Source of the DNA: Bacillales bacterium UBA7057
GTDB taxonomy: Bacteria; Bacillota_I; Bacilli_A; RF39; UBA660
DNA: 64,000 nt
Direction: 5' to 3'
Assembly (NCBI GenBank): GCA_002493865.1
Contig: DLAC01000010.1
Coordinates: forward strand, 31,017 to 95,016
Part shown: one piece after another, positions 38,578 to 45,783 of the stretch
Layout: each line of letters opens with the position of its first letter
Position numbering within the stretch: position 1 is the stretch's first letter
Notes under the pieces: generated by a model
What the model saw: the letters and a program-made list of their open reading frames with translations, nothing else
Databases searched by the model: none
Told to the model about the DNA's origin: nothing
Translations under genes and position numbers: made by a program

Positions 38578-41500
38578 ATGAGGATAACGATTATTAGGGA
38601 GAGTCATTTAGAAGATTTTATACTTCCTGAACTAGTAGATGGTAACTACTGGGTTTTTTATACGGATAAAAGAGGGAAGTCTAAAGAACTTGTCAATGTC
38701 ATCGCTATGGATAATTCTTGGGTGATGAAGCAAAATAAAGATGTTTCTATTATTAATTTAGATGGGACTGAATCCTATGAACAAGTGACATTACAAAATG
38801 GAGAACTATATTTTTTACGTCTTGTAGATGAAAAAATTTTATTATATGTCTCTAATTTTTGTGATGACTCTCTCCAAAATTATAATATCGTTTCTAAGGG
38901 TGAAATTACAATTGGACAAGCCGATACAAATACAATCGTTATTCCAAGTCCTTTGGTGCGTAGTATTCAAGCAAAATTAATATTTGATGAAAATCGTTTG
39001 ATTTTACAGTCTACAGGAAATGGGGTTTATTTAAACCATAAAGCAGTCATCAATCGTAGTGTGAATGTAACCATTGGAGATATTATTTTTATCTATGGTT
39101 TTAAACTAATTCATATGGGTTCTTTTTTAGCAATTCAAAACCCTAAGAATCAGGTGGTGATTCATGAAACAGGATTAGAAGTTCGACCTAATGAGCCGAT
39201 GAATGTTCCAGATCAAGGAGAACCCATCGATTTATCTGAGCTAGAGCTTTATAAAGAAGAAGATTATTTCTATCAATCTCCAAGATTACGTAGTTCTATT
39301 GAAAAAAGAGAAATTAAAATTGATGCACCTCCTAGTAAACAGGAGCAGGGAAAGATGCCATGGATTTTTACCGTGGGTCCTATGCTTACCATGGCATGTA
39401 CTTCGATTATGTCTGGGTATGTAGCAATCATGGGACTGATTGATGGAACGCGTAGTAAATCAGCAGCGATTCCTTCTCTGGTTATGTGCTTTACAATGTT
39501 ATTTGGTACGATTTTATTACCATTACTCTCTAGAAGATATCAAAGACAACAAAAAGAAAAACGTGAAAAATATAGACAGAGTAAGTATCGAAAGTATTTA
39601 TTTGACATTGAACAACAAATCGATGCGGAAATGAAAAAGCAAACTCAAATCTTAAATGAAATTTATTTGCCTTTAGAAACTTGTGAAAATATTATCATGA
39701 CTAGAAAACGTGTTCTATGGGAAAGACGTACAGAAGATAATGACTTCTTATCTATTCGATTGGGTCTTGGAATCGTTCCTGCTGAGATTGATGTCAAAGC
39801 ACCAGAACAATCATTTACACTGGATGAAGATAATTTAATGGCAGAAGTCAATAAAGTTGTTTATAAATCTCGCGAGTTAATTAATGTTCCTGTGGGAATG
39901 AATCTTGCACAAAAAAACATTGTAGCTATTATGGGATTAGAATCTGAAAGAAAAACTTTTATTTCCAATATGATTCTTCAGCTAATTACTTTCCATGGTT
40001 ATACCAATTTAAAAATTGTATTTTTAATGGATGGAGTAGAAGAGGATGAATATAGTTTTGCGAAGGTTCTTCCTCACTGCTGGGATAATAATAAAGAAAT
40101 TCATTTTTTTGCGACGAATGTAGATGAGATGAAATCCATTGATGCTTATTTACAATCTATTATGGAAGAAAGAAAGAGTAGTGCGAGTGATCAAAGTAAT
40201 AAAATGACGGATTATCGTAATTTTGCTCCCTATTACTTGATTATTACCAATCATTATAAATCTGTTAAAAACTTAGGAATTATTCATGAAATATTGAAGT
40301 CTTCTGTGAATTTTGGATTTTCTTTTCTAATCCTTACGGATTTAATTTCAGAACTTCCAAAAGAATGTGAAACCTTCTTAGATATTTTAGAAAAAACTTC
40401 TGGGCTTGTAGAAAACGAACTTATTTCTACGAAACAAAAGCAGTTTACCATTGATCATAATCCAAATATTAATTTAGAACATTGTAGTATGAAGCTTGCA
40501 AACATTCCTATTATGGCTGAAGATGAGAATTCTAATTTACCAGGAATGATTACTTTCTTAGAGATGTATGGAGTTGGAATGGTCGAGCAGTTGAATTCTG
40601 CTAATACTTGGAAAATGAATGACCCAACGGCTAGTTTGAGTGCACCGATTGGAGTTTATGCAGGTGGAGAATTATTTAAATTAGACTTACATGAAAAACA
40701 ACATGGACCCCATGGATTAATTGCTGGTTCTACGGGTAGTGGTAAGAGTGAGTTTATTATTACTTATGTTCTTTCGATGGCAGTCAATTATCATCCAGAC
40801 GAAGTTCAATTTGTTTTAATTGACTATAAGGGTGGTGGACTTGCTGGTGCCTTTGAAAACCGTGAAACAGGAATTCGTCTTCCACATTTGGCAGGAACGA
40901 TTACCAATTTAGACACCGTTGAAATGAACCGAAGCTTAGCCTCTATTCAAAGTGAACTTCGTAGAAGACAGAGAATGTTTAACGAAGCAAGAGAAGAATT
41001 GGATGAAAGTACCATCGATATTTATAAATATCAAAAATTATATAGGCAAGGATTAGTCAAAGAACCAATGTCTCATTTGTTTATTATCTCTGATGAATTT
41101 GCGGAGTTAAAACAACAACAACCAGAGTTTATGCAGCAGTTAATTTCTACTGCTCGTATCGGTCGTAGTTTAGGAGTACATTTAATTCTTGCAACGCAGA
41201 AACCAAGTGGTGTTGTCAATGATCAAATTTGGTCAAACTCTAAATTTAAGGTATGTTTGAAAGTACAGGAAAAAGCAGATAGTATGGATATGATAAAGCG
41301 ACCAGATGCTGCCATGTTAAAGGAAACTGGACGCTTCTACTTGCAGGTCGGTTATAACGAGTACTTTGCTCTTGGGCAATCTGCATGGTGTGGAGCTAAA
41401 TATTATCCATCTGAGAAATTAAAGAGAAAAGTAGATGACTCCATTATGTTCGTAGACCGAATTGGTTCTGTTATTAAGACTGTGTCAGATGCTAAGAAAC

Positions 41501-45366: not shown

Positions 45367-45783
45367 ATGGATGATAAACAGGAATTACTCATTTCAGGAG
45401 TAGAAGATATTGAGGTTATTTTAAGAGAAATTTCTCTTTCTGTTCGTGAAGTATTAGAAACTGTTTCTAATGAAATGACCAAATTACAAGGGGACTCTAT
45501 TCTTTTAGGAGAAGTATCTACCGGTTTACTTGCTAAATTCTCTGAGTTTCAAGAAGAATTTCCACATTTTATTAAAGAAATTGATAATTATTCAAATTTC
45601 ATGATGGAAACATTAAAATCTTATCAGAAAACGGATGACGATATTGAGACAAAAGTAAAGGAAAATTTAAATGCTCAAATTGAGCAATTATCTAAGGCAG
45701 GAGTGCTAAGGAATGCTGGGATTCCGATTGCCCACACTTCCAATTTAGATGACATTGACCGTGAGGAAAATGCTGGTTTATAA
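45367..45783 (+). CDS. stand-alone copy of the effector N-terminal (LXG-like) module
   Basis: ~138 aa from ATG 45367 (MDDKQELLISGVEDIE...). FSEFQEEFPHFIKEIDNYSNFMMETLKSYQKTDDDIETKVKENLNAQIEQLSKAG aligns with the VPRYAEALLEFSKFLSNYVLENYSDTDAEMKAKVEANLAEAIAKLGE segment of the effectors. No C-terminal toxin domain. Confidence 0.5.
   Translation: MDDKQELLISGVEDIEVILREISLSVREVLETVSNEMTKLQGDSILLGEVSTGLLAKFSEFQEEFPHFIKEIDNYSNFMMETLKSYQKTDDDIETKVKENLNAQIEQLSKAGVLRNAGIPIAHTSNLDDIDREENAGL

What the first reader, a model, noticed from the sequence alone, without database searches (positions are those of the whole stretch)
38578..45783. Apparently minimal T7SS core: EssC + YukD-like + WXG100 with no recognisable EssB/EsaA/EssA in the window
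essC (1538 aa, FHA-like N-terminus plus three ATPase domains) is followed by a ubiquitin-fold YukD/EsaB-like gene, an EsxA-like WXG100 gene and six small, translationally coupled helical genes (five in the 100-170 aa range and one ~85 aa). Three of these are WXG-like and one is a stand-alone copy of the effector N-terminal module. I see no EssB/YukC pseudokinase, EsaA/YueB or EssA candidates among the flanking genes. The upstream zinc-ribbon membrane protein (31716-32618) and Cys-rich protein (32646-33584) do not resemble them either. Either the membrane core lies elsewhere, or this lineage uses a reduced or divergent apparatus.
Basis: inference. Interest (0 to 1): 0.55.

Follow-up and report, generated by a model that had tools for sequence, protein, structure and literature searches.

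The report
Stripped-down type VII secretion gene cluster
This gut-type spore-forming bacterium carries a type VII protein-export cluster reduced to the motor ATPase, a small ubiquitin-like helper and small helical cargo proteins, and about fifty related uncultured species show the same reduced layout, so it looks like an undescribed, simplest-yet variant of a known secretion system.

Summary
Window 38578-45783 encodes an EssC ATPase (passes NCBIfam TIGR03928), then a tightly packed operon. This operon holds an 84-aa YukD/EsaB-like ubiquitin-fold protein, an EsxA-like protein, a 168-aa helical protein, three weak WXG100-like proteins and a 138-aa copy of the effector N-terminal module. That is five small genes after esxA, not six. 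The locus really spans 33686-46557, adding three LXG-like effectors with WXG100 partners upstream and two minus-strand genes downstream. No YukC/EssB, EsaA or EssA was found in any ORF of 100 aa or more in the 64 kb. Kinase, PP2C and DUF6382-FHA components were also absent.

Among 76 EssC relatives, the window sits in a 53-member clade (NJ bootstrap 100/100), almost all uncultured gut "Bacilli" MAGs. Only the YukD-like gene and WXG100-like genes recur beside essC there. The other sequences carry the kinase/phosphatase/FHA genes of the published T7SSe/f/j subtypes. The reduced clade has also lost the phosphothreonine-binding Arg of the EssC FHA domain (0/50 versus 17/23).

The 168-aa protein and the zinc-ribbon membrane protein are not cryptic core parts. 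Unlinked components elsewhere in the genome could not be tested. Verdict: a new variant of a known kind, with moderate interest.

The parts
33686..34969 (+). LXG-like effector 1 (427 aa). It has a ~110-aa helical N-terminal targeting module, a shared middle domain and a C-terminal domain of unknown function.
   Evidence: 70% identical to effector 2 over 247 aa and 41% to effector 3 over the N-terminal 185 aa. No Pfam or NCBIfam hit. The C-terminal part has no PDB sequence relative.
35017..35337 (+). WXG100 partner protein (106 aa).
   Evidence: Pfam WXG100 E 3.6e-9, 37.2 bits, above the gathering score.
35446..36696 (+). LXG-like effector 2 (416 aa). It has the same N-terminal module and a possible cell-wall hydrolase C-terminus.
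   Evidence: Pfam Hydrolase_2 E 9.4e-5, 23.4 bits, below the 27-bit cut-off, at residues 322-406. Paralogy shown.
36720..37025 (+). WXG100-like partner protein (101 aa).
   Evidence: Pfam WXG100 E 0.0019, sub-threshold. BLASTP links it to the 106-aa and minus-strand 101-aa WXG100 proteins.
37040..38377 (+). LXG-like effector 3 (445 aa). It has the same N-terminal module and a Ser/Thr-rich C-terminal half with repeated GMGxDPRY-like motifs.
   Evidence: sequence; paralogy. No Pfam hit.
38578..43194 (+). EssC/TsxC membrane ATPase (1538 aa). Layout: FHA region, 2 TM helices, DUF/stalk, then D1 (canonical Walker A/B), D2 and a degenerate D3.
   Evidence: The FHA lacks the phosphothreonine-binding Arg and His. 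The segment aligning to the YukD-binding beta-hairpin of YukB is present at about residues 953-967.
43196..43450 (+). EsaB/YukD-like ubiquitin-fold protein (84 aa). It has no C-terminal Gly-Gly.
   Evidence: A homologue lies beside essC in 52 of 57 clade loci.
43459..43755 (+). EsxA-like WXG100 protein (98 aa, with a YWTG motif).
   Evidence: Weak Pfam and NCBIfam hits. It clusters by BLAST with WXG100 proteins of 52 loci.
43758..44264 (+). 168-aa lineage-restricted protein: a helical hairpin (residues 10-93) with a disordered acidic tail and no TM helix.
   Evidence: Only 16 homologues, all at least 47% identical. AlphaFold2 mean pLDDT is 59, with the hairpin at 72-87. No significant fold match; the best weak ones include CFP10/ESAT-6 and YscE. 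The family is found only in the window's own subgroup.
44261..44566 (+). WXG100-like small helical protein (101 aa, with a DWVG motif).
   Evidence: Pfam E 9.3e-4 and TIGR03930 E 8.4e-6, both sub-threshold.
44573..44896 (+). WXG100-like small helical protein (107 aa).
   Evidence: Pfam E 1.3e-5, 25.8 bits against a 27.3 cut-off. TIGR03930 E 3.4e-6.
44910..45365 (+). 151-aa protein: a WXG100-like N-terminal half (SWKG motif) and a coiled-coil tail.
   Evidence: Pfam WXG100 E 1.1e-3 over residues 16-74. TIGR03930 E 9.1e-5.
45367..45783 (+). 138-aa stand-alone copy of the effector N-terminal module. The mechanical ORF begins at a TTG at 45337.
   Evidence: Called as 138 aa in identical contigs. 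BLASTP to the 117-aa module gives E 2e-4. NCBIfam ESAT6_2 E 2.4e-8, sub-threshold. In relative L002 this gene (120 aa there) is followed by a 1064-aa protein that is absent here.
45884..46237 (-). 117-aa stand-alone copy of the effector N-terminal module.
   Evidence: BLASTP E 1e-11 to 1e-14 to the N-termini of the three effectors.
46252..46557 (-). Canonical WXG100 protein (101 aa).
   Evidence: Pfam WXG100 E 6.9e-10, 39.5 bits, above the cut-off.

Best explanation
The locus is a functional type VII secretion system of a distinct, reduced subtype. Its dedicated machinery, as far as gene linkage shows, is only three parts: the membrane ATPase EssC, a YukD/EsaB-like ubiquitin-fold protein and WXG100 proteins.

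Shown:
- The gene content and order (essC, yukD-like, esxA-like).
- Membership in a strongly supported EssC clade of about 50 species in which nothing else is conserved next to essC.
- Loss of the phosphothreonine-binding residues of the EssC FHA domain in that clade.
- Presence of LXG-like effectors, each beside WXG100-type partner genes.

Inferred by analogy with the B. subtilis YukB/YukD structure and T7SSa EccC/EccD:
- EssC hexamerises and its two TM helices per protomer line the channel.
- The YukD-like protein docks on the DUF/FHA region and on the beta-hairpin of ATPase domain 1, stabilising or licensing assembly.
- EsxA-like dimers and effector-plus-partner helical bundles are recognised by the C-terminal ATPase domains and exported.

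The clade most likely arose from a T7SSe-like ancestor, with which it shares the C-B-A gene order and an N-terminal FHA. It would have lost the kinase, phosphatase and FHA-partner regulatory module and the accessory membrane proteins.
For: - EssC identity.
- YukD-like identity.
- Operon packing.
- Clustering of 1747 ORFs from 87 loci: only the YukD-like family (76 loci) and the WXG100-like family (52 loci) are widespread beside EssC. The next family occurs in 17 loci.
- NJ tree of 76 EssC sequences: a 53-member clade containing the window is separated from 23 others with bootstrap 100/100.
- The other group carries DUF6382+FHA, PP2C, Ser/Thr kinase-TPR and single-TM proteins. These match T7SSe/f/j as described in PMC11217815, which names Neobacillus as a T7SSe host.
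- Profile HMMs of those four families give no credible hit in the 53-member clade. The two that occur are weak (E about 2e-4), to a 343-aa ORF in L048 and a 205-aa helical protein in L063.
- FHA residues: Arg 0/50 versus 17/23, Ser 18/51 versus 23/23, His 19/51 versus 22/23.
- Pfam-labelled flanks of minimal-clade members are housekeeping or unrelated genes.
- D1 Walker A is at least 80% conserved across the 76 sequences, and invariant apart from one position among 12 clade representatives.
- The YukB hairpin region aligns to the window EssC. The role of YukD is taken from PMC12637312.
Against: - Linkage is not proof of sufficiency. Every characterised T7SS needs further membrane proteins (EccB/D/E or EssA/EssB/EsaA). 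I could only see 10 kb either side of essC, and could not search whole genomes for unlinked components.
- Nearly all clade members are metagenome bins, so there is no cultured strain, expression data or secretion data.
- The EssC FHA domain is retained, which implies some binding partner that I did not identify.
- Some subgroups have their own conserved extra gene. One example is a ~550-aa lipoprotein with an HExxH motif right after the YukD-like gene in 12 loci. Lineage-specific accessories may therefore exist, and the window's own 168-aa protein could be one.
- The tree is unrooted with respect to canonical T7SSb EssC, which I could not include. The direction of evolution (loss versus primitive state) is therefore inferred.
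Confidence: 0.6

Rival explanations
1. The apparatus is not reduced. The missing membrane components (EssB/EsaA/EssA-like or other) are encoded at an unlinked site in the genome and assemble with this EssC.
For: Every characterised T7SS uses extra membrane proteins (PMC11217815, PMC12637312). The EssC FHA domain, which in B. subtilis binds YukC, is retained. Only 10 kb either side of essC could be inspected in relatives.
Against: In the described T7SSb-j systems the core genes cluster with essC. None of 33 clade loci with at least 5 kb flanks on both sides has such a gene, and the flanks are housekeeping or unrelated genes that differ between subgroups. For T7SSc, the authors found no T7SSa/b orthologues elsewhere in those genomes, so loss without an unlinked replacement has precedent.
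Confidence: 0.2
2. Divergent, unrecognised core components are present in or beside the locus. Candidates are the 168-aa protein, the zinc-ribbon membrane protein (31710-32618) and the Cys-rich 312-aa protein (32646-33584).
For: All three lack annotation. The 168-aa gene is translationally coupled inside the operon. The zinc-ribbon protein has 3 predicted TM helices.
Against: The 168-aa protein has no TM helix. It models as a WXG/Lap-like hairpin plus a disordered tail and exists only in one genus-level group (16 homologues; no HMM hits elsewhere). The zinc-ribbon protein is absent from L008, the closest GTDB species, which keeps the full T7SS operon. The Cys-rich protein occurs only in the three closest species and has no convincing TM helix, only one weak hydrophobic segment at residues 262-280. 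The 145-aa TM protein at 46782 stays with radC when feoAB separates it from the T7SS genes in L002.
Confidence: 0.1
3. The locus is a decaying remnant of a fuller T7SS and no longer secretes anything.
For: It lacks every accessory component known elsewhere. The FHA ligand-binding residues are degenerate. In the window, the large gene that follows the 120-aa module in L002 is missing.
Against: All ORFs are intact, including a 1538-aa EssC that keeps full-length similarity (35-94% identity) across more than 50 species. D1 Walker A/B are at least 80% conserved in the alignment, and nearly invariant among clade representatives. The operon is compact, and most starts have a purine-rich ribosome-binding-like stretch upstream. 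Three full-length effectors with partner genes are present. The essC/yukD-like pairing is preserved in 52 of 57 loci.
Confidence: 0.07

Closest known systems
T7SSb of Staphylococcus aureus / Bacillus subtilis (EssC/YukB, EssB/YukC, EsaA/YueB, EssA/YueC, EsaB/YukD, EsxA/YukE)
   Same: EssC has an N-terminal FHA region, 2 TM helices and FtsK-like ATPase modules, and it passes the Firmicute EssC equivalog TIGR03928. There is a separate ubiquitin-like EsaB/YukD protein. WXG100 proteins and LXG-type effectors with small helical partners are present. The FHA lacks phosphothreonine-binding residues, as reported for T7SSb EssC.
   Different: No EssB/YukC, EsaA/YueB or EssA/YueC in the 64-kb window or beside essC in relatives. 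The gene order is essC, yukD-like, esxA-like, rather than esxA-esaA-essA-esaB-essB-essC (the T7SSb order is from my own knowledge).
T7SSe / T7SSf / T7SSj (Garrett, Higginson and Palmer 2024, PMC11217815)
   Same: These are the closest EssC relatives recovered (about 40% identity). EssC carries an FHA region. The essC, tsxB, tsxA gene order is the same.
   Different: The window's clade lacks TsxJ (DUF6382+FHA), TsxF (PP2C), TsxD (kinase) and TsxK/H/I. It has also lost the FHA phosphothreonine-binding Arg, which is conserved in those subtypes. It forms a separate clade with 100/100 NJ bootstrap support.
T7SSg (Acetivibrio, Paenibacillus; PMC11217815)
   Same: It is described as 'relatively simple': two WXG100 proteins, a ubiquitin-like TsgB and the ATPase TsgC, plus one extra protein.
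   Different: TsgC lacks FHA domains, whereas this EssC has them. T7SSg has a DUF5050 beta-propeller protein, TsgL, and always sits next to Tad pilus genes. Neither feature is present here.
LXG polymorphic toxins with Lap partner proteins
   Same: An N-terminal helical targeting module is fused to variable C-terminal domains. Each effector is encoded beside small WXG100-like partner genes, and stand-alone copies of the module also occur.
   Different: The N-terminal module is only about 110 aa. It does not hit Pfam LXG and has no LxG motif. No obvious immunity genes follow the effectors.

Membership tests
Type VII secretion system (general: EccC/EssC ATPase + WXG100) | Membrane-bound FtsK/SpoIIIE-family ATPase of the EccC/EssC type | tested here: met
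   TIGR03928 at 1038 bits, above the 778 cut-off. Pfam FtsK_SpoIIIE E 6e-45. YukB 9qks E 1.7e-120. Two TM helices.
Type VII secretion system (general: EccC/EssC ATPase + WXG100) | WXG100-family protein(s) encoded with the ATPase | tested here: met
   35017-35337 and 46252-46557 pass the Pfam WXG100 gathering score. The esxA-position gene 43459-43755 scores only sub-threshold but has a WxG motif.
T7SSb (Firmicute canonical) | EsaB/YukD ubiquitin-like protein | tested here: met
   27 of 60 family members hit PF08817. The AlphaFold2 model has pLDDT 94 and a beta-grasp fold. Foldseek TM-score to the EccD5 ubiquitin-like domain is 0.78-0.79. The window protein itself is below Pfam detection.
T7SSb (Firmicute canonical) | EssB/YukC membrane pseudokinase (PF10140) | tested here: not met
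   No hit in any window ORF of 100 aa or more. No ORF has the cytoplasmic-domain / central-TM / extracellular-domain topology. None appears in the Pfam-labelled neighbourhoods of relatives. The whole genome was not searchable.
T7SSb (Firmicute canonical) | EsaA/YueB large polytopic membrane protein | tested here: not met
   No ~1000-aa multi-TM protein in the window. The 1064-aa protein in relative L002 shows no hydrophobic stretch long enough for a TM helix (by eye) and has no Pfam hit.
T7SSb (Firmicute canonical) | EssA/YueC small membrane protein (PF10661) | tested here: not met
   None of the small operon proteins has a TM helix, judged by eye for most and computed for the 168-aa protein. 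There is no room for hidden ORFs, since gaps are at most 13 nt and the intergenic ORFs are not credible. The 145-aa TM protein at 46782 has no Pfam hit and travels with radC, not with the T7SS genes.
T7SSe / T7SSf / T7SSj | PPM/PP2C phosphatase TsxF and DUF6382+FHA protein TsxJ (plus kinase TsxD in e and j, AAA+ TsfV in f) | tested here: not met
   There are no such Pfam hits in the window. HMMs built from these families in the other group give no credible hit in the 53-member clade, only two weak ones at E about 2e-4.
T7SSe / T7SSf / T7SSj | Conserved phosphothreonine-binding motif in the TsxC FHA domain | tested here: not met
   The window has IGQ...VRSIQA...TGNG where the other group has IGR...VSxxHA...SxNGT. 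The Arg is present in 0/50 of the clade and 17/23 of the other group.
T7SSg | ATPase without FHA domains; DUF5050 beta-propeller TsgL; adjacent Tad pilus genes | tested here: not met
   An FHA domain is present. There are no DUF5050 or Tad hits in the window.
LXG toxin family (PF04740) | N-terminal LXG domain recognised by the family model | tested here: not met
   No LXG hit at E up to 0.1 for the three effectors. The stand-alone copies of the module score as weak WXG100/ESAT-6-like: the 138-aa protein hits NF035934 at E 2.4e-8 and the 117-aa protein hits Pfam WXG100 at E 0.005. The effectors work like LXG toxins by architecture only.

The most novel reading that the evidence does not exclude
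EssC plus a YukD-like protein is a complete, self-sufficient type VII translocon in this clade. There would be no EssB/EsaA/EssA, no EccB/D/E and no kinase module. This would be the minimal T7SS, widespread in uncultured gut Bacilli, with an FHA domain repurposed for a new partner or for self-assembly.
Probability: 0.35. Interest if true: 0.75.

Novelty: new variant of a known kind. Interest (0 to 1): 0.58.

Why it matters
What forms the actual channel of type VII systems in Firmicutes is still debated, as is which accessory proteins are essential. If this clade is functional with nothing but the ATPase, the ubiquitin-like protein and WXG100 proteins, it would define the irreducible core. It would also offer a three-gene system for reconstitution and structural work. 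It would extend the published a-j classification, which was built from RefSeq genomes only, into the uncultured gut microbiota, where these systems probably deliver cell-wall-active or other toxins between bacteria. The paired loss of the kinase/phosphatase module and of the FHA phosphothreonine pocket is a clean natural experiment on how T7SS regulation evolves.

Tried and rejected
- A PDB sequence-profile search with the YukD-like family found only a non-significant ubiquilin UBL match (E 0.53). The fold had to be shown by structure prediction instead.
- The structure of the 168-aa protein came out at low confidence (pLDDT 59). Foldseek gave no significant match, so it cannot be named beyond 'helical hairpin plus disordered tail'.
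- The C-terminal domains of effectors 1 and 2 have no PDB sequence relatives. The cell-wall hydrolase call for effector 2 rests on one sub-threshold Pfam hit.
- I tried to obtain canonical T7SSb EssC sequences to root the tree. The two distant hits I looked up (P0088, P0083) turned out to be further kinase/PP2C-type variants, so the tree has no T7SSb outgroup and is rooted only at its midpoint.
- The promoter/terminator scan was not enriched over shuffles (74 versus 62 +/- 8). It gives only candidate sites: 38520-38547 before essC, and 46637-46608 for the minus-strand pair.
- I considered and rejected the 1064-aa protein of relative L002 as an EsaA analogue, because it shows no TM-length hydrophobic stretch (by eye) and is absent from the window.
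- A whole-genome search for EssB/EsaA/EssA was not possible. Only one genome-collection scan was allowed, and loci are limited to 10 kb flanks.
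Full report
**Context.** The window has about 30% G+C. It comes from an endospore-forming Firmicute: it encodes CotE, CotJB, a sporulation-type sigma factor, M50 and M23 peptidases, MreC and RadC. Exact copies of its EssC and 168-aa proteins occur only in short metagenome contigs. The closest species representative in the genome collection is an 'uncultured Bacillales' MAG whose EssC is 85% identical (L008).

**What is at the coordinates.** ORF 38578-43194 encodes a 1538-aa protein.
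- It has Pfam FHA and FtsK_SpoIIIE domains and two TM helices at about 270-313.
- It makes a full-length match above threshold to the NCBIfam equivalog for Firmicute EssC (TIGR03928, 1038 bits against 778).
- It matches B. subtilis YukB (PDB 9qks) at E 1.7e-120.
- Only ATPase domain 1 has canonical Walker A/B motifs. D2 has GSGKE and D3 has no P-loop.

Seven genes follow on the same strand, with spacings of 1, 8, 2, -4, 6, 13 and 1 nt. Most starts are preceded by a purine-rich, Shine-Dalgarno-like stretch.

**The ubiquitin-like gene.** The 84-aa product of 43196-43450 has no Pfam or NCBIfam hit of its own.
- A profile of its family recovers 589 proteins, some named EsaB/YukD by NCBI.
- 27 of 60 sampled members hit PF08817 YukD.
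- AlphaFold2 with that alignment gives a beta-grasp model at pLDDT 94.
- Its highest TM-scores among the listed Foldseek matches (0.78-0.79) are to the ubiquitin-like domain of EccD5 in the ESX-5 complex, among many ubiquitins.
- It ends in ...VILI, with no Gly-Gly.

The YukD-like call is therefore confirmed.

**The small helical genes.**
- 43459-43755 carries a WxG motif and weak ESAT-6/WXG100 scores.
- 44261, 44573 and 44910 score as WXG100 below threshold.
- The 138-aa protein and the minus-strand 117-aa protein (45884-46237) are free-standing copies of the ~110-aa N-terminal module shared by three upstream proteins of 427, 416 and 445 aa (33686-38377).
- These upstream proteins alternate with WXG100 genes, one of which passes the Pfam threshold.
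- A further canonical WXG100 gene lies at 46252-46557 on the minus strand.

The T7SS island therefore spans about 33686-46557, wider than the finding. The three large proteins have the architecture of LXG-type polymorphic effectors, but they do not hit the LXG model. One has a sub-threshold match to the Hydrolase_2 cell-wall hydrolase family.

**Absence of the canonical partners.** I scanned all 60 non-nested window ORFs of 100 aa or more against Pfam.
- There is no YukC/EssB, EssA or EsaA.
- There is also no protein kinase, PP2C, DUF6382, DUF5050 or Tad component.
- The unannotated ORFs do not have EssB or EsaA topology.
- No operon protein has a TM helix.
- The intergenic gaps leave no room for a hidden small membrane gene.

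**Candidates for cryptic components.**
- The 168-aa protein belongs to a family of only 16 proteins, all at least 47% identical. It models as a helical hairpin (residues 10-93, pLDDT 72-87) with a disordered acidic tail and has no significant fold match. It looks like another WXG/Lap-type helical partner, not like EssA or EssB.
- The zinc-ribbon membrane protein (31710-32618) is missing from L008, where psd is followed directly by the homologue of the Cys-rich 312-aa protein while the full T7SS operon is kept.
- The Cys-rich protein occurs only in the three closest species.
- The 145-aa TM protein at 46782 remains next to radC in L002, where feoAB separates it from the T7SS genes.

None of these behaves as a conserved core part.

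**Comparative analysis.**
- An EssC search returned 82 full-length or near-full-length relatives at 36-94% identity, almost all from metagenomes.
- A scan of one genome per species returned 80 loci with up to 10 kb of flank on each side. I added six loci from exact-protein look-ups.
- I called and clustered 1747 ORFs from 87 loci. The only families widely found beside EssC are the YukD-like protein (76 loci) and WXG100-like proteins (52 loci). The next most common family is in 17 loci.
- A neighbour-joining tree of 76 EssC sequences splits them into 53 sequences, including the window, and 23 others. Bootstrap support for the split is 100/100.
- The 23 others come from Neobacillus, Bacillus sp., Clostridium cibarium, Acetobacterium, Acutalibacteraceae and similar hosts. 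Most of those with enough flank carry a DUF6382+FHA protein, a PP2C phosphatase, a Ser/Thr kinase with TPR repeats and a single-TM protein.
- That is the component set of T7SSe/f/j in Garrett, Higginson and Palmer 2024 (PMC11217815). That paper names Neobacillus as a T7SSe host.
- Profile HMMs of these four families give no credible hit in the 53-member clade. The two that occur are weak, at E about 2e-4.
- In that clade (57 loci counting extras), 52 have the YukD-like gene and 46 have it immediately downstream of essC. Thirty-three loci have at least 5 kb on both sides, and 26 have at least 9 kb.
- Pfam-labelled flanks in five looked-up members are secG, RNase R, proS, ribosomal protein genes, a ZIP transporter, spoIID and so on.

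**An independent sequence signal.** The second FHA domain of EssC in the kinase-associated group keeps the canonical phosphothreonine-binding signature (IGR...VSxxHA...SxNGT). In the reduced clade the Arg is never present (0/50 against 17/23). The Ser and His are each kept in only about a third (18/51 and 19/51, against 23/23 and 22/23). Loss of the kinase/phosphatase/FHA-partner genes thus goes together with decay of the ligand pocket. This argues that the reduction is real and old, not an assembly artefact.

**Mechanism.**
- Shown: the gene content, its conservation and the residue losses.
- Inferred: the cryo-EM study of the B. subtilis core complex (PMC12637312) reports three things. YukD binds the DUF and FHA domains of YukB. 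YukD also binds a beta-hairpin (residues 918-931) of ATPase domain 1. And YukB subunits contact each other laterally around an open TM channel.
- The window EssC aligns through that hairpin region (residues ~953-967 against YukB 918-930). Within it, D953 is invariant and G963 nearly invariant among 12 clade representatives, and both are at least 80% conserved across all 76 EssC sequences.
- I therefore propose an EssC hexamer stabilised by the YukD-like protein as the translocon. EsxA-like dimers and effector/partner bundles would be its substrates.
- The partner of the retained but degenerate FHA domain is unknown.

**Limits.**
- I could not search whole genomes, so unlinked components cannot be excluded.
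- I could not include canonical T7SSb EssC sequences in the tree, so the polarity of evolution is inferred from the shared essC/tsxB/tsxA gene order and from FHA decay.
- All clade members are uncultured. Some bins are labelled Muribaculaceae, Bacteroides or Succinivibrio (one such sequence, L064, falls outside the clade), which is most likely mis-binning.
- Some subgroups have their own conserved extra gene (see 'noticed in passing'), so 'A/B/C only' may hide lineage-specific accessories.

**Novelty.**
- Firmicute T7SS variants without EssB/EsaA/EssA are already published (T7SSc-j). That part of the finding is therefore not surprising.
- None of the published subtypes matches this one. T7SSg is similarly small but has no FHA on its ATPase, and it has a DUF5050 protein and Tad genes nearby. 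T7SSe/f/j have the phosphorylation module.
- The published survey used RefSeq only, which would miss a MAG-only clade.
- A text search of the held library found no subtype beyond j.

I rate this a new variant of a known kind, of moderate interest. It would be of higher interest if the three-component core proves sufficient.

Noticed in passing
window 19428-25922: A duplicated two-gene cassette sits between cotE and rpsP. Each copy has an N-terminally anchored ~285-aa protein (19428-20276 and 22603-23472, clearly paralogous). Each is followed by a 631-713-aa protein with phage-type DUF859 and baseplate Gp10_C domains (20373-22514 and 24027-25922). No other prophage genes are nearby. It may be a spore- or cell-surface structure built from phage tail-fibre parts.
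   Followed up: partly
L002 17270-20464 (also L003, L004): In the species whose EssC is 79% identical, the 120-aa N-module gene is followed by a 1064-aa protein with no TM-length hydrophobic stretch (by eye) and no Pfam hit, and then, after the two minus-strand genes, by feoAB. Both are absent from the window. The large protein may be a split effector whose targeting module is the separate small gene.
   Followed up: partly
L013, L020, L022, L026, L031, L047, L051, L058, L070, L071 and L088 (just after the YukD-like gene): One subgroup of the reduced clade has a conserved ~505-618-aa predicted lipoprotein with an HExxH motif (in L070: lipobox ...LSGCSS and HESNH). In most of these loci it lies directly downstream of the YukD-like gene. 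It is followed or flanked by a fixed series of five or six small helical proteins. It may be a lineage-specific extracellular accessory, perhaps protease-like.
   Followed up: partly
window 37040-38377: The third effector has no recognisable toxin domain. Its C-terminal half is Ser/Thr-rich and carries repeated GMG(N/D)DPRY and GDDS(K/R)HED(A/T)YS motifs.
   Followed up: no
window 33686-38377: No candidate immunity genes follow any of the three effectors. Each is followed by a WXG100 gene or by essC, which is unusual for LXG-type antibacterial toxins. This would fit cell-wall-acting enzymes or a role in the producer's own envelope.
   Followed up: no
window 6387-8849: An 820-aa surface protein with a thioester domain (TED) and five SpaA/prealbumin-fold repeats, which looks like a covalent adhesin or pilin-type protein.
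   Followed up: no
window 2256-4400 (minus strand): A 714-aa soluble protein with no Pfam hit. It is built from repeated ~120-aa helical units with a recurring 'DF..A..Y' motif.
   Followed up: no
L095 8500-12593 and L094 4850-7609: More distant EssC relatives (27-39% identity) sit beside other combinations: YukD + Pkinase + VWA + PP2C in L095, and PP2C in L094. The VWA/kinase/PP2C set resembles the component set described for T7SSc, but here on an FHA-bearing ATPase. This suggests further unclassified arrangements.
   Followed up: no
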